Shown: positions 1 to 11,395 of the stretch, in pieces
How the letters are laid out: the number at the start of each line of letters is the position of its first letter
How positions within the stretch are numbered: the stretch's first letter is position 1
NCBI GenBank assembly: GCA_023205875.1
Contig: CP060769.1
Coordinates: forward strand, 62,001-126,000
Direction: 5' to 3'
Source of the DNA: Chloropicon primus
Taxonomy: Eukaryota
DNA length: 64,000 bases
Translations under genes and position numbers: made by a program
Notes under the pieces: model-generated
What the model was told of the DNA's origin: nothing
What the model saw: only the letters and a program-made list of their open reading frames with translations
Database searches by the model: none

Positions 1-66
1 TCGATCATTTTTCGATTTGATAGTTGTATTATGAGACCTACGCGCTACCGACTGCGCCACGAAGAC
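1..66 (-). tRNA. tRNA-Met(CAT) elongator, 5' exon plus part of the intron; runs off the window edge
   Basis: Bases 1-120 are identical to 8913-9032, which contain the 5' exon and most of the intron of the complete tRNA-Met at 8871-8978. Confidence 0.8.
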
Positions 67-120
67 GTTTTCCTTGTTGTTTCAAGGGTGTGCACGAGTA
101 GGAAATGACATTTTGGACAA
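1..120. repeat. Direct repeat of at least 120 bp, copy of 8913-9032 (tRNA-Met 5' part plus 54 bp of upstream flank)
   Basis: Exact match at offset 8912; the copies diverge after ...ttttggacaa. Confidence 0.97.
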
Positions 121-384: not shown

Positions 385-750
385 AGTAGCTCTAGCTCTT
401 GATCATCCTCATCCTTTTTCTTGGCAATCCCTCGTCTTGTTTGCTCCCTCCGTATCAATCTGCTGCTGCCAACGAAGAACCTGAACTGCTCCAGTGGGAG
501 AGGCAACAAGACCTGGAAGAAGGAAGCCGCGGAGATGTGCCCGAGCTGCCAGCTTCGACCCGTGCTTGGTCTACCTCGAGCCAGAATCACCCGTTCTGGC
601 CTGCTTCTGTGCTGGTCATAGCATAGTAGCTCTAGCTCTTGATCATCCTCATCCTTTTTCTTGGCAATCCCTCGTCTTGTTTGCTCCCTCCCTCTGCCCT
701 GTCCCCTCAGCAAGACGGGGACCGGCAATCCCTCGTCTTGTTTGCTCCCT
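385..750. repeat. 67-bp direct repeat (385-451, 625-691) with a partial third copy (~724-750)
   Basis: agtagctctagctcttgatcatcctc...tttgctccctcc recurs with 240-bp spacing. Confidence 0.9.
450..564. repeat. 115-bp segment with an inverted copy at 2582-2696
   Basis: ccgtatcaatc...gacccgtg is the reverse complement of cacgggtc...gatacgg. Confidence 0.95.
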
Positions 751-881
751 CGCCTCGCCTTGCCTCGCCTCGCCTTTGCCTCCCAAGTCCAGTTTTTCCC
801 TGCTGAAAGCCGTTTCGTTCTCCCCCCTTCCAATCAAAATCCAATTCATGATGAACAATTCATGAGCTGGGCGAAGACTTT

Positions 882-1262
882 GTGCATGAGATGCGATCGA
901 TGCTGGCCAAGGAGGAGGAAGACTTTTACTCGAGCTGCGTGGCCTGCGTGGACCAGGCCCTCGCCCTCTACGAGTCGAGGGAGTGGGACCATTCGAGAAC
1001 GGATGCTTTCCTGAGGACGATCGAGAGGGGCGTGAGGAGGAGGACGACGGAGCTCGCTGTCGCAGCGCAAGTGAAGGAGGTCTCGGTGGAGGCGGAGGCG
1101 GACAATGCCCTGTGGTTCCCGAAGAAGGGCGATAGGGTCAAGCTGAAGAGGCTTGGCGGGACGAAGGCCACCGTCGTCGGCTTCAACAAGACGAATCAGA
1201 CGGTCACCGTCCGGAAGGGAACGATAACAATGACGTGCACGCTGGGTGATCTCAGCAGATGA
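882..1262 (+). pseudogene. C-terminal fragment resembling the MutS2 KOW/SH3-like region
   Basis: WFPKKGDRVKLKRLGGTKATVV...VTVRKGTITM resembles the MutS2 KOW motif. Host-like codon usage, but no ATPase region upstream. Confidence 0.45.
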
Positions 1263-1307
1263 AGAAGCCGGTGCGATGATGGATGTTGGATGATGGATCC
1301 TCTCTCT

Positions 1308-1548
1308 CTCCCCTCCCTCCTCTGTCTGATCAAAAGAAGCCTGATCATCTGTCTCTCTACTAAAGGGTAACTGAAGCAAAAGAAGCCAAATCATCATCCA
1401 AGCAAAGTAACCGATGCATCTCCTCCCTCCTCTCCCTCCTCTGTCTGATCCAAAGAAGCCTGATCATCATCCAAGCAAAGTAACCGATGCATCTCCTCCC
1501 TCCTCTCCCTCCTCTCCCTCTGTCTGATCCAAAGAAGCCTGATCATCT
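1308..1548. repeat. Nested short tandem duplications
   Basis: ctctgtctgatc(c/a)aaagaagcctgatcatc occurs three times and catccaagcaaagtaaccgatgcatctcctcc twice. Confidence 0.85.
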
Positions 1549-1708
1549 TAAGAGAGAGAGAGAGAGAAGGAGGGAGAAGGGAGGACGAGGACGAGGACGA
1601 GGGTGGCGGAGGGTTCGACAAAAGGAAGCGTCTCATTACGAGCTTTCCGTGGACCACTCGATTGAAGGATTTGGTGTCCTGTGGAGGATTGGAACCCACG
1701 GGAGATGA

Positions 1709-2076
1709 TTGGAGGAAGTGGAAGATGAAGAAGACGCAGTGGTGAGGATGTCGCTGGCTGCTGAGGAGATCTTGGAGCTGAGCGAGCAAGTGTTGCGAAG
1801 CTCGAACAAGGTGAAAGGAATCGAAGCGGAGATGGTCACAGCCATTGCTCTCATCGAAAGCAGTGGAAACGTCAAGGCTTATCGGTACGAGGAGCACCTA
1901 GGAGAAGCTTCTTCTGGATTAACCCAACTGCTGCAAAGTACGGCGAAGGTAAATGCGATTCTTTCGCTCTTTGATCTCGACGTCATGCGCATCTCCTCTC
2001 TCCTCTCTCTCTCTCTCTTTCTCTCTTCTGCCTCTTTTTCTCACACACACACACTTCTGCCTGACCCTCTGCCTGA

Positions 2077-2110
<34 letters not shown>

Positions 2111-2581
2111 GATGCATGGACACTTGTCTTGTCTTCTCCTTGCCGCTTGCTGCTTGATGGCTTGGGTCGCACGCACGCGTAACGCACGGCGGACTGGACA
2201 AATGGCTCCTCTCCTTCCCTTTTTGGTTTTACTTCCTCCACTTCTCTTGCTCAGTGGCTAGCCGAGGACCTTTCCTATGATGAGTACGAGTTGGACCTCT
2301 ACCAGCCTGCATCATCCCTGTACTTCTGTGCCGCTTATCTTTGCTGGCTCAAAACATACAAGAGCGTTACCCGGTCGGATGAGTTCGTCGTTCGCGGGTA
2401 TAACGGTAAGCTTTGCCCTTGTGCATCTTCTTGCAGATGGATCTGGATGGAGCTCTCATTGCTTCCATTGATTTAGGACACCTCCTCACCCATCACTGCG
2501 ACCTCATGCCTCTTCCTCTCTTCCTTTGGAGCAGGTGGACCCAACGGCGTGAACCTTGAGGCAACGGTGCCGTACTCATGA
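1709..2581 (+). pseudogene. SLT/lysozyme-like transglycosylase gene with introns 1949-2254 and 2406-2534; appears truncated
   Basis: Spliced frame reads AIALIESSG...GLTQLLQSTAK/WLAEDL...FCAAYLCWL...RGYN/GGPNG with GT-AG introns. It stops at PYS* exactly where the inverted 115-bp copy begins. Confidence 0.7.
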
Positions 2582-3157
2582 CACGGGTCGAAGCTGGCAG
2601 CTCGGGCACATCTCCGCGGCTTCCTTCTTCCAGGTCTTGTTGCCTCTCCCACTGGAGCAGTTCAGGTTCTTCGTTGGCAGCAGCAGATTGATACGGCCCG
2701 AGCTCACGATCACGAAGTGAATCAAGTGTTGATGATGGTCCGGGGCGCTGAGGCTGGTCAAGAGTTTGGTGGACCCATGGGGTGGCAGCTCCGAGTTGTG
2801 TTGGCTCTCGTGAAGGCGCTGCAACTTTCTCCTCGCGGCGGACTATGCGTGAGTGAGGTCATGATACGTCCCGATTGATTGAGACGCCGCCACAGATGTG
2901 GAATTGGACTTTGGACAACCCGTTTGTTTCTGCGTGAGACGCTGAGACTGAGACGCCCGTTCGGTGTGTGTGTGTGTGTGTGTGTGTGTTTGAGACCGCG
3001 TCTGTGGAAGGATGAGTCCATGAGTCCATGAAAAGGAAAAAGGCAAGCGTGTGCCGTCTCCTCCTCATACTCCTCATACTCCTCATACTCCTTTGTGTCC
3101 AATCGGGAAGCCCTCGCCGTCATCACACGTCCATCGAGGGAAGGATTCTCGTCTCCA

Positions 3158-3253
3158 TCAGGGTACGATCAGGTAGGCCTTCACGAGGACTCGAGGGACG
3201 CATGCAGCATCGTGACACCCTTTGGACGGTACCGACCCTTGATCCTTCCTCAA
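3158..3253 (+). mobile_element. Ty3/Gypsy-type reverse transcriptase fragment
   Basis: SGYDQVGLHEDSRDACSIVTPFGRYRPLILPQ fits the GYxQIxLxxxxxxxTAFxTPxGxYxxxxMPxG RT motif. Confidence 0.65.
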
Positions 3254-3439
3254 GAGACAGTCCAGCAATATTCTCGATCATCCTCGATCAGAGTACCACC
3301 AAAGGCACGTTAATGAATTGTCTTTCTTGTTGTTTTTCTTGTTGTGTTGTGTCCTGTTTTGTGATGTGCCCTTCTCTCTGGCCTCTCTGGCCTCTCTGGC
3401 CTCTCTCTCTCCCTTGAGATGACCACCCCTTTGGCGGCC

Positions 3440-3857
3440 AGCAGGGCTTCAAAATGTAACGGACGCCGAGTGATCAGGAAGAAGACGGCTCGCATGCTTT
3501 TGACGTTGAGGCACTATGCGCTCAGAACGTACTTGGCTTCCAAGGTGCTCTTGTGCGGCAAGGAGCTGGCGATCGTGACGGAGGAGTACACCTCCAAGAC
3601 CTGTGGCAGGTGCGGACACATCAAGGAGAACCTGGGTGGAGCAAAGGTTTGCAAGTGCCAGGAGTGTGGCTTCAAGTGCGATCGGGATGCGAACGGGGCA
3701 CGCAACATCCTTCTCAAGCACTTGTGTGAACCACAAGAAGTGCAACTCCTCAGGGTTGCACACGCGTTTGTTAGTACGAGCTGCCCTTGCTTGCTAAGGG
3801 TGGAATGGTCCTTTCGAGAAACTCAAACTGAAACGACCTTTGCACAAAACTAACGGG
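3440..3857 (+). mobile_element. Fanzor/TnpB (Fanzor2/IS607-like) 3' relic: zinc ribbon plus RuvC-III, followed by a putative omega-RNA
   Basis: KKTARMLLTLRHY...IVTEEYTSKTCGRCG...CQECG..DRDANGARNI. The RuvC-I and RuvC-II regions are absent. Confidence 0.85.
3721..3857 (+). ncRNA. Putative Fanzor omega-RNA scaffold
   Basis: Consecutive stems cttgtg/cacaag, gtgcaac/gttgcac, ccctt/aaggg and ggtc.tttc/gaaa.gacc lie directly 3' of the RuvC-III coding region. Confidence 0.5.
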
Positions 3858-4650
3858 TAGAGATCCGGCCGTGGGAGGAGGACATAGACCGCAGCAAATT
3901 GCCTGCGAGCTGAACCATACCAGCCATACCAGCTGCTGCTTCACTATGCCCCATATTGCTCTCCACTCCAGACATGTGGACAGGGAAGTCCCGTTTGGTG
4001 GCCTCGGAGAGTAACACAGCAGATGCCGCACCGACCTCAATGGGGCCACCAAGAGGAGTACCTGTACCGTGCATCTGCAAGACCTGTGCACTCCAGGCAT
4101 CAAGGTCTGCCGAGTGCAAGCTCATACGCATCACTTGCTGTTGAGAGGGTCCGTGCGGTGCGGTCAAAGCACTGGATCGCCCATCTTGGTTCACAGCAGT
4201 GCCACGTAGCATCACCGTATCTTGTTTGGAACCATCTTCAAGAGGACCGAGAACGCAAGCGATGCATATTGTGTATATAGTCCCTTCGAGACGTCGCCAA
4301 GAACAAGGCTCATGTAGGACATGTGTGCTGCGACAAGAGAGGATGAACAAGCCGTATCAACAGCTGCACAAGCTCCTTGCAAACCATATGTGAAGGACAG
4401 TCGCCCTGCAGAAACACCCAAAGAACCTGACGTAACCGCATGAGCCTCAGACTTATGGCCATAACCAGCATAGATATTGCTGTATTCAACATGCTGAGTG
4501 AGTGTACATGCCCACCATCACACCCATCCTCTGTTTCTGATGCATCCAACTCGAGGAAGAATCGGATTCCATGCTGTGCAGAGCTTCATACGATACCTCG
4601 AGAAGAAGACGTTGGTGAGGATCCATCCAACACGCCTCAGAGCGAGATGC
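3858..4650 (-). pseudogene. Type I polyketide synthase ketosynthase-domain fragment, frameshifted and internally deleted
   Basis: MDPHQRLLLE, VDTACSSSL, NQDGRSSALTAPHGPSQ, HGTGT and GHSEAAAG motifs occur in order but in different frames. Confidence 0.9.
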
Positions 4651-5503
4651 CTTGCTCTCGAGCCTCCGTCTTCACCTTTGGCTTGGGGAACGGTGCATCC
4701 GCCGCACACCTTGCACCTATGAGTTTGTCACGGACATGAACTGCGAGTATGGCAAGGCTGGTGGCATGGTATCGCAGCAGGAGTGCAGGGATGGGTGCGA
4801 CGGCCTCACGCGAATCGGATCTTTGTTCACACGCCCGGAATATCGACGGACGAGAGCTTAATCTAATCTGAAAAACGAGACTATCGTACAATCGAAGGAC
4901 CCATAATTCCCCTCCCTGGAAAAGAAACGTCTTTCGTAGTCCCAGCAGATCGAGAGAGAGAGAGGCCACACCCAGCTCAGCAAGACTTTATCACATGCTG
5001 CGTGCCAAGGTCGCGCCTTGCCTCTCCACCGGCGTGAAGGTGTGACCCCTCTCCCTCTCCCCCTCTCCCCCTCTCCCCCTCCCGCCCTTCCCGCCCGATC
5101 GTCCGTTGTTCGCAACGCCACCCCACAAGTCACAAGCCTGTTCCTGTTCCTGTTGGTCTTCGTTCTCCCTCCACCTGGGCTCCTCGATCGATCGATCGAT
5201 GCCAGGTGCCACCTCTTCTTGCTGCTGCTGCTGCTGCTGGAATTGCGAGATGCGTCCAGCGGAGACACTCTGCAAGTCCCTCACTGAATCTTGTCTCTCC
5301 CCGAGTTTCGTTTGTTGATGCGAAGTTCCATGATCGTGGAAGGAAGGTCACCTGAACGACGTTTTTAGGATGGAACGAACGAACGAACGAACGATGTGCC
5401 GGCGGTCAACGGAGACATACATAGTGTGGTGGAGGAGGATAGAATATTTCAGCTTTAGGATTGCTTTTTGGGGATTAGGATTAGGATAGTCTTTAGGATC
5501 GGC

Positions 5504-8458
5504 TTAGGAGTCCTGTAGCATCATGTTGACGAGCATTGGATGCGGGGTCACTACCTCTTTGGCCTTTCTGTTCTCGGACTTCTGCCGGCCGGAGCCAACG
5601 TTCACGCCGCCTCCTTCTGCGTTCTCCTTGTACCCCTTGCCGATTTTGCCATGTTCATAGCTGCAGGACAAGCACCTCAAGCCCTTTGAACCGTTGGTTG
5701 GGATCAAGGGGATCGAGGGGATCTTCTCGATCAAGGCTTCCTCGGACTCAGGTTTCTTTGTACACGGAACACAAAACCAGAAGCCAATCGTGTTCTTCAG
5801 TTGTGTCATGCCAATTTCCTTGCTCATGTCCCAAAGCTCCTTCTTGTCGACAGACTCCGTCGCTTTCAAGAAGCATCCGAACGAGCACCAGTGGTTAAAC
5901 TCACTTTTGAAGATGAAGCGGTGGCAGTACCAGCACCAGTTCGAGAGGAGGCAAGTGGGATTGTGCCCACCTCGATCACGTTCCTCCCCAGGAACCGGGG
6001 TCAGAGCTCCTGTTTTGACCAAGGGGCACTCAGGGCGACGAAAAGCATCACAGCAGATGCAGCGCAGGGTTTGAGTACCGTCTGTAGTAGGAAGTCGAGG
6101 AAACTCCTTCATCGGCTTCCTTGCTTTGGCCTTCCTCTTCCCTTTCGTGTTGGTCTTGGCCTGTGTCTTCCTTGTCGTACCAGTGCTCAAGGGGCTGCTG
6201 CTGCAACGTTCACAGGGACATGCAGCGGCATCAAATTTCCGAAGCTCTCTCTCCCTCTCCCCGCCGTCCTCGGCGTCGCTGTCCACCAGAATGCAAGGAC
6301 GCTTCCTCTTGCACATGTCACAACCACAAATGCATCGAGTATGTGCTGGAGCGGTGTTCGCGGTGCCTGTTGTCCTGGACGACTTGCGAGAGCATTTATC
6401 AGCGCAGGAGCATTCGAAGAAATCTTTTGAGTCACAGAGATCGCGGTTTCTGGGAAACATTCATTCTCAAACACGACATCGACATGTTCTCCCTTTAGTG
6501 CATCCGCAAAGTACTCAAAGACTCTGCTCAATGCGTCTTCATCCAAGCCGTGTCCATCACGGTTTTCAAACAACTCGTCCCTCACGGAGTGAACGTGGCA
6601 GTATTGCCTGTAGGTCTCCAGGAACTCCATGTGCTCCTCGCGAAGAATGATGTCGTAGTTCGCTTCCGTGATGGAACAAGCAGCGACGAGCACACGAACT
6701 GTGGGTTGGTTCTTCCATGCGCGGACGAGATCACTCGCCCGTTGCTCCACAAAGCGCTTTCCAAGAAGATACTCCTCATCTCCAGCGAGAACCTGGGCTA
6801 CGGCCTCTTGAACGTGTCTCTCCTCGGTGACGACGGCATCCACTTCTGTCAAGCACGCAACCGTTGCTATGTTCGCCTTACAGCACCTTTCCAAGAGCGT
6901 CCCGAGCGTCGCAAGCTCCCTTGTAAGCCGATCTGCACGGGTGCAGAGTAGAACGCCCCCTGCGTATTTGCCCTCGTCGCAGACCTTCTTCACCCATTCT
7001 TGGACGGCAGCCTCCTCCGAGGTCGAGCCTCCACACTTCTCTGCAAAGGTCCCAATTGTGATTTCAATCACCGGCAGCTTCCCGCTTAGCGCAACATCCT
7101 TCTGAAGGTTGTCGCGCACCTTGAGGAGGACGTGGAGGAGTAGGCACCGTTGGACATATATCGAAGTAGACTTGGCGACGTCAGTTCCAGGCGACGTACG
7201 GGCAATACCTACGAGGAGAAGGGGTTTCCCGTGCTTCTGCTCCCCGGCTTCTCCAGATTCTCCAGCTTGTGCCTCAGGACGTGCTCGACGTGTTCGACGA
7301 GGAGACAAAGTTCCTCAGAAGTGTGTTGGCCCGATGCTACAGAACAACGGGTGGCGCCGGACTTGAGCATGCAGTGCGACGCCGAGTACACGGCGTGCCC
7401 GTCCGAGGTGCTTGCAGCCTTGCTCATGTACTTTTGAGCTCCTCTTTCTTTTCCTCCCCAATCAAAGCTGCTGCATGGGACGTCGGGATACACGCCAGTA
7501 TAGAGGCCTGCCCTGCGCGCTCAGCAAGGTAGTCGAGGTCCTCGTCAGCTTGTGACCGTCTCGACAATCGCGACAAGGCAGCTACAAGAAGCGCGCAAGG
7601 CTCGCCCTTCTCCTTCGCAAGGGCAAGAGCTTTCGTAAGAACTTTGCGGTCCTTGAGGCATCGCGAGCGGCTGGCGGTCCCAAGCTCCACGAAACGAAAT
7701 GCTTTCACCTGTTTAGGAAGATCTTTGCCGAGCAACGCGCTTGAGATCGTGGCCGCCTGACCAGCGAGCTTGTTCCCAAGCCCCTCCTGCGCAAGGGACT
7801 CGCGGAGGAAGACGATGCAGTGGGTCAGTTCTTTCAAGCCCTCAACGCGCTCCAGGTGGACTCCGCCACGGCCTCGGACCACGCGGACCAGGGTCAGCTC
7901 CTCAGGCTCGCGAGTTCGCTCCGCCCGTGTACCCTCGCGTGCAAGGGTGGGCCGCGCGCCAGCTGATTCGTCGTCTGCGAAGCGAAGAGAGGCAATAAGT
8001 CCATCCGCATTGAGAAGCGTCGTCGGATCCACGTTCTCCTCGAAGGCGGCCATCTCCCGCTCCCTATGAGGTCCCGCGGAGATCGCCAGGGCCACTGTGC
8101 AAGCGTTGGTGTCCAGGCTTGTTCCGAGTGCCACCGCGCCGCACGGCTGCCCGCTGCCCTGCAAGTGGGTGAAGACAGAGACATTGGCACCACAATCCTT
8201 GGGCGCCACCCGCCATCCTTGGGCGCCACCCCCTGGAGAACCGCGGCCGGGGTGGCGCCACCAGCCCCTTCTTCACATGACGTCCCAGTATTCGTCAGTC
8301 TCCTCTTCTTCGTCGGCAACCAGCGGCCGAAGTATTCCAGGAGGTAACTCATCGCTTTCTCTCTGGTCGTGGTCTTCTCGTCCCCACTCGTCGGCCGCCT
8401 CGTTCGCGGCTCTGGCGTTACGGCGGCTCTCTTTCTCTCTCCAGCTCCGCCAGGTCAC
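5504..8458 (-). CDS. Long interrupted ORF: two serine recombinase catalytic domains plus a Cys-rich (multi-zinc-finger-like) C-terminus
   Basis: Domain 1 is IVFLRES..Q..FVELGTAS..DRKVL..LLVAALSRLSR (~7820-7490). Domain 2 is VGIARTS..SIYVQ..VLLCTRADRLTR (~7220-6855). The frames join by -1 shifts at homopolymers near 7433, 7244 and 6454. Confidence 0.7.
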
Positions 8459-8687
8459 ACACCTCGTCGGCCGCCTCGTTCGCGGCTCTGGCGTTACGGC
8501 GGCTCTCTTTCTCTCTCCAGCTCCGCCAGGTCACACACCTCCTCGCCGTCCTCCTCGCCGTCCTCCTCGCCGTCCTCCTCCGCCGTTACGATCTCGTTGT
8601 GATCCTTGTATAACTAACGTCAGTCGCCGTCGTCGTCCTCGCCGTCCTCCGCCGTTACGATCTCGTTGTGACCCTTGTATAACTAAC
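8387..8687. repeat. 76-bp tandem duplication, 12-bp repeats and a 38-bp direct repeat (8581-8618, 8650-8687)
   Basis: Read directly from the sequence. Confidence 0.9.
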
Positions 8688-8870
8688 TTCTCTCACAGAA
8701 CCCTTGTCTCACGGAGCAAGAGGTAAGGCGGCTGTTGTTTCGCCGCGGTGTTGTTTCGACACCGGATGTGATCCCCGTACTAGAGGTCGGAAGTGTATCA
8801 CGGGTCGGAGTTTCCCGTGTCATTTTGAACCATGGTTGGAGAGCAACTTGTGTTCGTTGCTGCCGAGATG

Positions 8871-8978
8871 TGCCTTCGGCGGGGATCGAACCCGCGACCT
8901 TAGGATGACCCTTCGATCATTTTTCGATTTGATAGTTGTATTATGAGACCTACGCGCTACCGACTGCGCCACGAAGAC
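8871..8978 (-). tRNA. tRNA-Met(CAT) elongator with a 35-nt intron (8907-8941)
   Basis: Acceptor stem GTCTTCG/CGAAGGC+A, D-arm TGGCGCAGTCGGTAGCGC, anticodon loop CTCATA|A with the intron at 37/38, T-loop GTTCGATC, and the U31:U39 pair typical of elongator Met. Confidence 0.95.
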
Positions 8979-9127
8979 GTTTTCCTTGTTGTTTCAAGGG
9001 TGTGCACGAGTAGGAAATGACATTTTGGACAATTTATCCGACTTGTCTCGTCGGAGATCGACCGCGAAGCTCGCAGACGCCGCGCTGGCGGCTCGGCAAA
9101 GGTAAGGTCGGTCGAAGCGCGCTCACG

Positions 9128-11395
9128 ATGGCTTCGAGCGGCAGCTTGGTCGTCGCCCTGGGTTCCGTCCTGCTTCGGCGAAGGGCACTGGCGTGGAGCC
9201 ACCCTCTGGGATTAAACCTCCTCTCCTCGCACCACCACCACCACCAGTTGTACTCCTCGTCCTCGTCGTCCTCGTCGTCCTCGTCGTCGTCGTCGTCGTC
9301 GTCGTTGCGTAACATTGGGATCTCTGCGCACATCGACAGCGGGAAGACGACGCTGACGGAGAGGATCCTGTTCTACAGCGGGAGGATCAAGGACATTCAC
9401 GAGGTGAGGGGGAAGGACGGGGTGGGGGCGAAGATGGACTCGATGGAGCTGGAGAGGGAGAAGGGGATCACGATCCAGAGCGCGGCGACGTACTGCAGCT
9501 GGGGGGAGAACCAGATCAACATCATTGACACGCCGGGGCACGTGGACTTCACCGTGGAGGTGGAGCGAGCTCTCCGCGTCCTCGACGGGGCCGTCCTGGT
9601 GCTGTGCTCCGTCGGCGGGGTCCAGTCCCAGTCCATCACCGTGGACAGGCAGATGAAGAGGTACAGCGTGCCGAGGCTCGCGTTCATCAACAAGCTGGAC
9701 AGGTCCGGGGCCAACCCGGACAAGGTCATGGACCAGGTGAGGGACAAGCTGCGGCTGAACTGCGCGGCGGTCCAGGTCCCGATCGGGCTGGAGGACCAGC
9801 ACGAGGGCGTGGTGGACCTGGTGAACATGAAGTCGTACAGGTTCGAGGGGGAGAAGGGCGTGGACGTGGTGGAGAGCTCAGAGGTCCCGGAGGACCTGGC
9901 GGACAAGGTCTCGGAGGCGAGGGCCGCCCTGGTGGAGGCCCTCGCGGAGGTGGACGACGAGATCGGGGAGCTCTTCCTGGAGGACGTGCAGCCCACGGAG
10001 GACCAGATCAAGCAAGCGATCAGGAGGACCACCATCGCCAACCAGTTCGTCCCCGTGTTCATGGGGAGCGCCTACAAGAACAAGGGGGTGCAGAGGCTCC
10101 TCGACGGGGTCGTGGAGTACCTCCCCGCCCCCCACGAGGTGAGGAACATGGCCCTGGACGTCTCCAAGGCCGACGACGGGGAGGAGACGCCCGTCGAGCT
10201 GAACTCGGAGGACCCCTCCCTCCCCCTGGTCGCCATGGCCTTCAAGCTGGAGGAGGGGAGGTTCGGGCAGCTGACGTACCTCCGGGTGTACCAGGGCAAG
10301 CTGAAGAAGGGGGACTTCATCTACAACATCAACAACGGCAAGAAGCTCAAGGTGCCGAGGCTGGTCAGGATGCACTCCAACGAGCTGGAGGACATCACCC
10401 AGGCCCCGGCCGGGGAGATCGTGGCCATGTTCGGCGTGGAGTGCGCCTCGGGGGACACGTTCACGGACGGCAAGCAGCAGGTCGCGCTGAGCTCTATGCA
10501 CGTCGCGGACCCCGTCATGTCCCTCGCCATCACCCCCGTCAGCAGGGACGTCGGCACGCAGTTCAGCAAGGCCCTGAGCCGCTTCCAGAGGGAGGACCCC
10601 ACCCTGAGGGTCCACTTTGACTCGGAGACGGGGGAGACCATCATCAGCGGGATGGGGGAGCTCCACCTGGAGATCTACGTGGAGAGGATGAAGAGGGAGT
10701 ACAAGGTGGAGACGAGGACGGGCAAGCCCCGCGTCAACTTCAGGGAGACGGTCACCTCCAGGGCCAAGTTCGACTACACGCACAAGAAGCAGTCGGGAGG
10801 CCAGGGCCAGTTCGGCCGGGTCGTCGGCTACATCGAGCCCATCCCGGACTCCAAGGAGGTCGAGTTCGTCAACAACCTCGTGGGGAACAACATCCCGCCG
10901 GGTTTCGTGCCCCACATCGAGAAGGGGTTCAGGGAGGCCTGCAACGCGGGCTCCCTCATCGGCCACCCGGTGGAGGGTGTGAGGATCGTGATCGAGGACG
11001 GGGCGGCCCACGCCGTGGACTCGAGCGAGATGGCCTTCAAGCTCTGCTCCCTGTACGCCTTCAGGCAGGCGTACATGGAGTGCCAGCCCAGGATCCTGGA
11101 GCCCGTGATGAAGTGCGAGGTCAGGGCGCCCACCGAGTACCAGGGAGACGTCATCGGAGGCCTGAACCGAAAGAAGGGGGTCATCAACGACAACGTGCAG
11201 GAGCTGGACGAGGCCGTGATCGAGGCCCTCGTCCCCCTGAACAACATGTTCGGCTACTCCACGGAGCTCAGGAGCATCACCCAGGGCAAGGGCGAGTTCA
11301 CCATGGAGTACTCGAACCACGCCATCGTTTCCATGGACGTGCAGCAGGAGCTCACCAAGTCGTACGAGAAGAAGAGGAGCTCCGGAAACAAGTAA
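9128..11395 (+). CDS. GFM1: Mitochondrial elongation factor G (EF-G1)
   Basis: [32 protein letters not shown] and KKQSGG motifs, preceded by a presequence-like N-terminus. Confidence 0.97.

What the first reader, a model, noticed from the sequence alone, without database searches (positions are those of the whole stretch)
5393..8978. Candidate site-specific integration at the tRNA-Met 3' end with an 8-bp core repeat
GATGTGCC at 8867-8874 spans the last four tRNA bases (GGCA) plus four flank bases. It recurs at 5393-5400, about 100 bp beyond the recombinase stop codon and immediately after host-type (GAAC)n microsatellite. The copies continue ggcgg and ttcggcgg respectively. This resembles attL/attR of tRNA-targeting integrative elements, which are established for prokaryotic islands but unusual in nuclear genomes. 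Caveat: the same 8-mer also occurs at 534-541, so chance is possible.
Basis: partly seen in the sequence, partly recalled or inferred. Interest (0 to 1): 0.8.

Follow-up and report, generated by a model that had tools for sequence, protein, structure and literature searches.

The report
tRNA-seeking twin serine-recombinase element in alga
A 3.4-kb repeated DNA element of a tiny marine green alga encodes a protein with two bacterial-type serine-recombinase domains and sits just behind several different tRNA genes, so it is likely an undescribed kind of eukaryotic jumping gene, while the proposed 8-base integration core is probably not its boundary.

Summary
The 8-mer is probably not an att core. 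It occurs 9 times in the window. Another copy of the element runs through the 5393 copy to 5357, and other copies leave the window's sequence at 8718-8746, not at 8867.

The larger idea holds in a changed form. Region 5357-8718 belongs to a Chloropicon primus repeat family, with 9 and 11 loci in two published strains, 4 of them annotated in one strain only. It encodes a ~950-aa protein with two resolvase-type domains, each keeping its catalytic motifs, as do distant marine homologs. Of 7 other junction contexts seen, 5 show a tRNA, of different isotypes and all on the same strand. The 4 with a measurable distance lie about 5-30 bp from the core end.

Best reading: an element placed by position behind tRNA genes, likely moved by its own recombinase across a 2-bp overlap. 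It fails IS607 and att-island tests. No empty site or circle was seen, and the left end rests on one contig.

The parts
8871..8978 (-). tRNA-Met(CAT) gene with an intron at about 8907-8941; the target-side landmark
   Evidence: Rfam RF00005, 52.7 bits; missed by ARAGORN; intron limits by my count
5357..8718 (-). Core of the repeated element, about 3.36 kb, co-oriented with and downstream of the tRNA
   Evidence: Right end: four other contexts leave at 8718-8721. Left end: one contig aligns from 5357 with 75 unrelated letters before it (X5 record 19). Summed contig depth about 4-12 times the neighbouring EF-G gene in X1 (not a copy number)
5504..8352 (-). Single gene for a ~950-aa protein, here in five frames because of one-base losses at 6424, 7241, 7431 and 8231
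   Evidence: tblastn of P0013; all laid contigs of 4 of 4 runs carry one more base at these four places; intact copies P0013, P0014
7433..7830 (-). Serine-recombinase domain 1 (motifs FLRES and LSRLSR; Ser186 of P0013 at about 7796-7798)
   Evidence: PF00239 E 0.002, below the curated cut-off on its own; motifs conserved in distant homologs
6745..7245 (-). Serine-recombinase domain 2 (motifs IARTS and RADRLTR; Ser388 of P0013 at about 7192-7194)
   Evidence: PF00239 E 1.3e-6, above cut-off; motifs conserved; ESM Atlas feature hits to resolvase clusters at 0.91-0.92 for residues 150-640
5507..6457 (-). Cys-rich C-terminal region, six CxxC motifs, likely zinc-binding; candidate DNA- or host-factor-binding part
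   Evidence: 25 of 46 cysteines of P0013 lie in residues 640-950; no Pfam match; function inferred
6770..7209 (-). Stretch missing in a deletion derivative of the family (loses the core of domain 2)
   Evidence: Joint 6769-7210 in 3 of 4 runs; matching truncated tail in P0007, P0009, P0010 from three loci
5355..5356 (+). AA dinucleotide at the left junction; candidate 2-bp crossover overlap
   Evidence: Sequence; the other left junction seen reads AT; weak
8718..8719 (+). AA dinucleotide at the right junction of the core; candidate 2-bp crossover overlap
   Evidence: Sequence; other contexts read AA or AT here
5365..5509 (+). Six TTAGGA words near the distal end; subterminal repeats resembling the TTTAGG telomere unit
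   Evidence: 6 of the window's 11 plus-strand TTAGGA lie here; telomere unit from PMC12301720 section 21
5393..5400 (+). Distal copy of the 8-mer; probably internal to the element
8867..8874 (+). tRNA-end copy of the 8-mer
   Evidence: shared with the tRNA-Met paralog
8719..8870 (-). 152-bp spacer between tRNA end and element core: 8719-8746 shared with two other contexts, 8756-8870 at about 2-3 times single-copy depth; no T4 terminator. Either a longer element end or carried-along flank
8387..8690 (+). Tandem repeats upstream of the gene (76 bp x2.2, 69 bp x1.9), variable between copies

Best explanation
The region 5357-8718 is one copy of a multi-copy Chloropicon element that encodes a protein with two serine-recombinase domains and lies just downstream of different tRNA genes, and it likely moves by that recombinase, choosing its site by position behind tRNA genes and not by an 8-bp tRNA-Met core. 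Shown: the repeat family, the two domains with catalytic motifs, the tRNA-proximal junctions on the same strand, the dispersed deletion derivative, and the lack of terminal inverted repeats. Inferred, in falling order of support: (1) mobility, from dispersed loci, strain-specific loci and the dispersed derivative; (2) catalysis by the encoded protein; (3) strand exchange over a 2-bp overlap (A/T then T on the gene strand) through a circle, as in IS607, with no true target duplication (about 0.45); (4) the two domains acting as a one-chain dimer (about 0.35); (5) targeting through RNA polymerase III factors or the open DNA behind tRNA genes, possibly read by the Cys-rich tail (about 0.4). The window copy is either a pseudogene or an intact gene with assembly slips.
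For: Family: 11 members in the P0002 cluster plus 5 further clusters, all named C. primus, on chromosomes 2, 3, 5, 6, 9, 15, 16, 17. Five near-full-length copies are 92.9-99.0% identical. Published orthogroups OG0000040 and OG0000045 give, by my grouping of neighbouring gene numbers, 9 loci in one strain and 11 in the other. Eight pair up by gene number, 1 is listed only in the first strain and 3 only in the second.

Protein: PF00239 in two stretches, E 2.5e-10. All four motifs are present in 6 of 13 C. primus models checked (the others are truncated or have gaps in the model) and in P0034 and P0035, which are about 30% identical.

Junctions (sample S1), 7 contexts besides the window's: (a) 8721, T arm aligned to the tRNA-Met T arm plus a TCG anticodon arm, tRNA-Arg, 5 bp after the discriminator; (b) 8746, T arm and acceptor strand abutting directly, Asp-like (label from recalled identity rules); (c) 8718, T loop and acceptor end 10 bp away, isotype unassigned; (d) 8719, D loop and TTC anticodon arm of tRNA-Glu followed by a T run; (e) joint 8609-8879 to a T arm, distance unknown; (f, g) two flanks I could not assign. 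Among the 5 contexts seen only as loose ends, which are not selected for tRNA likeness, 3 are tRNA. With 46 annotated tRNA genes in 17.4 Mb, a random site lies within 30 bp behind one on the same strand about 4 times in 100,000 (hand arithmetic).

The deletion derivative occurs at three loci, which suggests movement in trans. No terminal inverted repeat was found.
Against: No empty site and no end-to-end circle joint was seen (15 of 17 joints shown; contigs drop rare forms). The left end and the 2-bp overlap rest on one contig from another sample, which could be a segmental duplicate. Right ends are not uniform (8718-8721, 8746, and up to 8870 here), which a precise recombinase would not predict. 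tRNA identities come from 30-letter flanks read by eye, and only 17 of 45 loose ends were shown. Domain 1 is below Pfam's cut-off on its own. Strain-specific loci rest on gene annotation, not on DNA comparison. No DNA context was obtained for the distant homologs, so tRNA targeting is shown for one species only. The region around is a patchwork of duplicated fragments, so other routes of spread exist.
Confidence: 0.7

Rival explanations
1. One reading: site-specific integration into tRNA-Met by crossover in the 8-bp core, giving attL at 8867-8874 and attR at 5393-5400.
For: The 8-mer overlaps the tRNA end and recurs just beyond the gene, with 13 of 16 positions alike, reached in only 19 of 548 control pieces. 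The tRNA lacks a nearby terminator. In one other context the element abuts a tRNA discriminator directly, and 8 letters of that tRNA end also appear in a second context.
Against: Another copy aligns across the distal 8-mer to 5357. Other copies sit at Arg, Glu, Asp-like and other tRNAs with unrelated junction letters. The 8-mer is common in the window, 9 copies. No large-serine Recombinase domain PF07508 was found.
Confidence: 0.07
2. The recombinase gene is a passenger. Copies spread by retroposition of tRNA read-through transcripts, or by ectopic recombination and segmental duplication among tRNA loci, without the protein's own activity.
For: Variable tRNA-proximal ends that begin 0-10 bp after a tRNA end resemble processed tRNA trailers (inference). 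The neighbourhood is a mosaic of duplicated fragments, with a duplicated tRNA-Met. Contigs of runs guessed to be RNA cover the gene (not proof of transcription).
Against: No reverse transcriptase is encoded and the distal end has no poly(A) tail, only five A (sequence). Four contexts share one end within 3 bases. Catalytic motifs of both domains are kept across proteins about 30% identical. The junction tRNAs are of different isotypes, which homologous recombination would not favour.
Confidence: 0.15
3. The element is a recombinase transposon with little target choice, and only copies behind tRNA genes survived selection in a gene-dense genome.
For: The genome is compact (0.50 gene per kb, PMC6731263 passage). 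Two of 7 flanks were unassigned.
Against: There are about 8,600 protein genes, hence thousands of other intergenic sites, against 46 tRNA genes. Junctions cluster within about 30 bp and on one strand.
Confidence: 0.05

Closest known systems
IS607 family and its eukaryotic homologs (IS607EU)
   Same: Serine recombinase as the mobilising enzyme; no terminal inverted repeats or target duplication; short subterminal direct repeats; exchange over a 2-bp identity (PMC6188088 passages; PMC13565253 passages).
   Different: Here two catalytic domains in one ~950-aa chain with a Cys-rich tail, no match to an N-terminal DNA-binding domain or to the NCBIfam IS607 model, no TnpB inside the element, ends not GG, and a tie to tRNA genes. 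The 2026 review calls IS607EU the only known eukaryotic DNA transposon with a serine recombinase.
Prokaryotic genomic islands and prophages integrating at tRNA 3' ends (attL/attR)
   Same: Recombinase gene next to a tRNA 3' end. Features recalled, not from a call.
   Different: No shared core across copies, many tRNA isotypes used, insertion behind the gene, nuclear genome, no large-serine Recombinase domain or tyrosine integrase.
Tn4451/Tn5397-type large-serine-recombinase transposons
   Same: Serine recombinase; excision as a circle (Tn4451 title in the reference list of PMC6188088); short dinucleotide at the junctions (recalled).
   Different: No PF07508; twin catalytic domains; eukaryotic; tRNA-linked.
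Dictyostelid TRE3 and Skipper-2 retrotransposons
   Same: Position-specific insertion downstream of many tRNA genes in a compact genome (Skipper-2 at 7-133 bp and 8-23 bp, TRE3 at about 100 bp; PMC5006619 passages).
   Different: Those are retroelements with reverse transcriptase; this element has none.
Dada DNA transposons and Starships
   Same: Eukaryotic DNA elements aimed at small RNA genes: Dada at tRNA and snRNA genes (PMC3706591 abstract), some Starships at 5S rDNA (PMC11162782 passages).
   Different: Dada uses a DDE enzyme with 6-7 bp duplications and sequence-specific targets; Starships use a tyrosine recombinase and insert inside 5S genes. This element has serine-recombinase domains and lands behind the gene.

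Membership tests
IS607 family | Serine-recombinase catalytic domain with R-x-S and R-x-x-R motifs | tested here: met
   PF00239 in two stretches; motifs
IS607 family | TnpA with N-terminal DNA-binding domain and a single catalytic domain | tested here: not met
   Only PF00239 in Pfam; no IS607 model hit in NCBIfam at E up to 5; two domains in 950 aa
IS607 family | TnpB/Fanzor2 gene inside the element (usual, dispensable) | tested here: not met
   The only TnpB fragment (3419-3853) lies 1.5 kb outside the left end and has far higher depth
IS607 family | GG dinucleotide at ends and target | tested here: not met
   Junctions read AA or AT on the plus strand
IS607 family | No terminal inverted repeats or target duplication; short subterminal direct repeats | tested here: met
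   No end similarity; TTAGGA six times at 5365-5509; left end rests on one contig
tRNA-integrating island (attL/attR) | Direct repeat of the tRNA 3' end at both element boundaries | tested here: not met
   Distal 8-mer lies inside the shared sequence; other copies join at 8718-8746
tRNA-integrating island (attL/attR) | One preferred tRNA target with a conserved core | tested here: not met
   Met, Arg, Glu, Asp-like and further tRNAs
tRNA-integrating island (attL/attR) | Empty attB allele and excised attP circle | tested here: inconclusive
   No such joint among 15 of 17 shown; contigs drop rare forms; no assembly available
Large serine recombinase elements (Tn4451/Tn5397 type) | Recombinase domain PF07508 after the catalytic domain | tested here: not met
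   No PF07508 at E up to 1 in P0002-P0006, P0013, P0035
Large serine recombinase elements (Tn4451/Tn5397 type) | 2-bp overlap at both junctions | tested here: inconclusive
   AA at 5355-5356 and 8718-8719; only two left junctions known
TRE3 / Skipper-2 retrotransposons | Insertion downstream of tRNA genes | tested here: met
   5 of 7 other contexts plus the window copy
TRE3 / Skipper-2 retrotransposons | Reverse transcriptase, with LTRs or poly(A) tail | tested here: not met
   No such Pfam domain; no long terminal repeats
Dada | DDE transposase and 6-7 bp target duplication at a fixed site of the RNA gene | tested here: not met

The most novel reading that the evidence does not exclude
This is the founding member of a new superfamily of eukaryotic DNA transposons, independent of IS607. 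Its transposase is a single-chain twin serine recombinase that finds RNA polymerase III genes by position and inserts behind them without a scar, and it has relatives with an AP2-like tail in other marine eukaryotes.
Probability: 0.4. Interest if true: 0.87.

Novelty: new variant of a known kind. Interest (0 to 1): 0.72.

Why it matters
A 2026 review states that IS607EU is the only known eukaryotic DNA transposon using a serine recombinase (PMC13565253 passage). A second, unrelated lineage with a fused two-domain enzyme would extend the classification of eukaryotic mobile elements. It would also add a non-retroviral, non-DDE solution to targeting tRNA genes in compact genomes. A recombinase that is native to a eukaryotic nucleus and lands behind tRNA genes would be of interest as a safe-harbour integration tool. 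Two public strain assemblies that differ at four annotated loci make the ends and the empty site directly checkable.

Tried and rejected
No whole genome was held, so copies could not be extracted. Searches for loci found nothing confirmed: P0013 in metagenome and viral contigs; alignments of the distant clade in viral, metagenome and prokaryote genome contigs. P0013 had no match in plasmids. P0035 in phages hit only its AP2-like tail. Sequence searches of solved structures gave no recombinase.

Both structure predictions were too poor to use (mean pLDDT 27.9 and 37.3). The fold search gave nothing at E 0.001 and is no evidence either way. A second ESM Atlas search did not complete.

Rejected: a relic element end at 8794-8803 (score reached in 640 of 2000 shuffles); terminal inverted repeats; the 4350-8782 joint as an empty site, because it cuts the PKS active-site motif; low depth of some X3 junction contigs as a sign of circles, because the same joint has ordinary depth in X1 and X2. 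Domains 1 and 2 show no clear similarity to each other by BLAST in the part of the output printed.

Supplementary Data 8 of PMC6731263 had 0 hits for 5 end motifs, but cells are cut at 400 characters, and its 12 chromosome-16 rows are all under 200 bp.

Not in print as far as searched: searches found no description of this family; the orthogroups are labelled hypothetical protein, bar one member labelled CCR4-NOT. The library lacks most subscription papers, and Repbase was not searched.
Full report
Observation. The window is from a eukaryotic alga; the proteins closest to the region are named Chloropicon primus. Rfam finds one tRNA in the window, 8978-8871 on the minus strand with a CAT anticodon and an intron. 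The 8-mer is at the stated places. It occurs 9 times in the window against 1.89 expected. A match of this quality to the tRNA end turns up in 21 of 548 control pieces (exact) and 19 of 548 (gapped).

The gene. Three long minus-strand ORFs are pieces of one gene from 8352 to 5504. P0013 (950 aa) aligns over five blocks, at 95-100% in the three long ones. All laid contigs in 4 of 4 runs carry one extra base at 6424, 7241, 7431 and 8231. Three of these are beside four-base runs and the fourth is in a C-rich run, so they may be assembly slips. The named model P0005 shares the window's out-of-frame words and bridges the breaks with gaps. The intact protein has two PF00239 stretches (E 2.5e-10). Domain 1 alone is below cut-off and domain 2 above it. 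Each has an R-x-S motif and an R-x-x-R motif. All four motifs are present in 6 of 13 C. primus models checked and in the distant P0034 and P0035. A search of 1.84 billion representatives gave 8 hits. A profile search gave 8, of which 6 were new unnamed ENA and JGI proteins. P0035 (1139 aa) aligns at 28-30% over both domains and the region after them and ends in a weak AP2 match. Their hosts are not known; that they are marine eukaryotes is my inference from the AP2-like tail and from no hit in prokaryote genomes.

The family. Cluster look-ups list members on eight chromosomes. In PMC12301720 Supplementary File S1 (part 1 of 23 read) they form two C. primus-specific orthogroups. By my grouping of adjacent gene numbers there are 9 loci in one strain and 11 in the other; 8 pair up, and 02p16300, 03g27050, 14g72430 and 16g76820 are listed in one strain only. 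This is annotation, not DNA comparison. A 440-bp deletion that removes the core of domain 2 is seen as a joint in 3 of 4 runs and explains the same truncated tail in models from three loci. A defective derivative was therefore itself dispersed.

The tRNA-proximal end. Contigs of three runs of one sample were laid on 8590-9330 (17 of 45 loose ends and 3 joints shown). Four contexts leave the window at 8718, 8718, 8719 and 8721, two at 8746, and one joint links 8609 to 8879. The 8721 context is a tRNA-Arg(TCG): its T arm aligns to the Met T arm and the X3 loose end shows the anticodon arm. One 8746 context is a T arm and acceptor strand directly abutting (Asp-like by recalled rules). One 8718 context shows a T loop and acceptor end 10 bp away. 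The 8719 context reads as the D loop and anticodon arm of tRNA-Glu(TTC) and a T run, perhaps a permuted tRNA gene, a form reported in green algae (PMC12636532 passage). The 8609 joint ends in a T arm. Two flanks are unassigned; one has a T run like a terminator and the other keeps 8 letters of the Asp-like end. That makes 5 of 7, all with the element downstream on the same strand, and 3 of the 5 seen only as loose ends. With 46 annotated tRNA genes in 17.4 Mb (PMC6731263 Supplementary Data 1), chance per site is about 4 in 100,000. No common core sequence is visible at these junctions.

The window's own proximal junction is less clear. The core end at 8718 is 152 bp from the tRNA-Met. Part of the spacer (8719-8746) is shared with two contexts. 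The stretch 8756-9032 is one contig at about 2-3 times the depth of the branch into the EF-G gene in X1 and X2, matching the duplicated tRNA at 1-120. Runs X3 and X5 show this tRNA's flank joined at 8782, through six A, to PKS sequence with no element. That joint cuts the PKS active-site motif, so it looks like a deletion. X3 is labelled DNA but shows a GT..AG joint and little intergenic cover, so it may be RNA. The tRNA-Met has no T4 run for 2826 bp, the only gap that long between such runs on that strand. The true insertion point here may thus be close to the tRNA end, with a longer element end.

The distal end. One contig (X5 record 19) aligns from 5357 to 5875 with 75 unrelated letters before 5357 (24 of 193 loose ends shown). 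It crosses the 8-mer and the GAAC run; it is a net 8 letters shorter, which I take to be two GAAC units, though the place of that gap was not shown. Six of the window's 11 TTAGGA words lie at 5365-5509, one beyond the 8-mer. The window has AA at 5355-5356 and at 8718-8719, and other junctions read AA or AT. This fits a 2-bp crossover as described for IS607, where GG lies at both junctions without duplication (PMC6188088 passages). It rests on two left junctions.

Mechanism. The most likely account is a serine-recombinase element that leaves as a circle and re-enters over a 2-bp overlap behind tRNA genes, guided by position. Mobility is inferred from dispersal, strain differences and the dispersed derivative. 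Catalysis, circle, one-chain dimer and the targeting factor are untested. Variable proximal ends may reflect use of alternative cut sites near the tRNA; they also keep the passenger rival alive.

Comparison. It works like IS607 in chemistry and like TRE3 or Skipper-2 in site choice (PMC5006619 passages). It fails membership tests for IS607 (no matching model, no TnpB, no GG), att-type islands, large serine recombinases, Dada and retroelements. The C. primus Fanzor2 elements in PMC10711439 have inverted repeats and target duplications (passages) and are a different family. PMC3627910 reports eukaryotic serine recombinases in IS607-like Fanzor2 elements (passages). Of the ten paper searches, nine bore on the element and none listed a description of it; one search was about permuted tRNAs. 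What I saw of each paper: passages for PMC10711439, PMC6188088, PMC12636532, PMC3627910, PMC5006619, PMC13565253 and PMC11162782; abstract and outline for PMC3706591; abstract, passages, section 21 and part of the supplement for PMC12301720; passages, Supplementary Data 1, and part 1 of 5 plus a search of Data 8 for PMC6731263. Unread supplement parts and cut cells could hold a polymorphic copy.

Verdict. The 8-bp att core is unlikely (0.07). A tRNA-downstream serine-recombinase element is likely (0.7), and it appears undescribed. Interest 0.72.

Noticed in passing
window 1-120: Exact copy of 8913-9032 (5' half of tRNA-Met and its upstream flank), so a second tRNA-Met begins just left of the window; 864-3490 lies at about three times single-copy depth in X1, suggesting a local tandem duplication.
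   Followed up: partly
window 4350 and 8782: Runs X3 and X5 join PKS sequence at 4350 through six A to 8782, giving the tRNA a T8 terminator 89 bp downstream and cutting the PKS DTACSSS motif; not listed for X1.
   Followed up: partly
window 3419-3853: C-terminal fragment of a TnpB/Fanzor protein (PF07282, E 7e-19) from a high-copy family, about 30 times single-copy depth in X1; C. primus Fanzor2 elements are already described.
   Followed up: partly
window 3853-4800: Polyketide synthase ketosynthase fragment on the minus strand (PF02801), multi-copy in reads.
   Followed up: partly
window 1709-2576: Gene with a lytic transglycosylase SLT domain (PF01464, E 2e-5) and two GT..AG joints in contigs; unusual for an alga, with paralogs suggested by loose ends.
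   Followed up: no
window 882-1262: Duplicated 3' fragment of a MutS2-like gene (weak MSSS SH3 match); a 3-kb contig of X3 carries it at its end.
   Followed up: no
window 443-564 and 2582-2703: 122-bp inverted duplicate (98%) holding two of the nine 8-mers; contigs show opposite-strand joints there.
   Followed up: no
loose end behind window 8719 (run X1): Flank reads as the D loop and anticodon arm of tRNA-Glu(TTC) ending in a T run, which would fit a permuted tRNA gene in Chloropicon; only 30 letters seen.
   Followed up: partly
loose end behind window 8718 (run X1): Flank with a T-run on the element's strand but no tRNA T loop in 30 letters; may be the 3' end of another polymerase III gene.
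   Followed up: no
window 5365-5509: Cluster of degenerate telomere-like TTAGGA words at the element's distal end (telomere unit TTTAGG).
   Followed up: partly
P0001, P0008, P0018, P0021: A subfamily has a longer acidic C-terminal tail, so a second type of distal end probably exists.
   Followed up: no
window 9017-11395: Intron-free elongation factor G gene starts about 40-150 bp from the tRNA's 5' end on the opposite strand (name from motifs, recalled).
   Followed up: no
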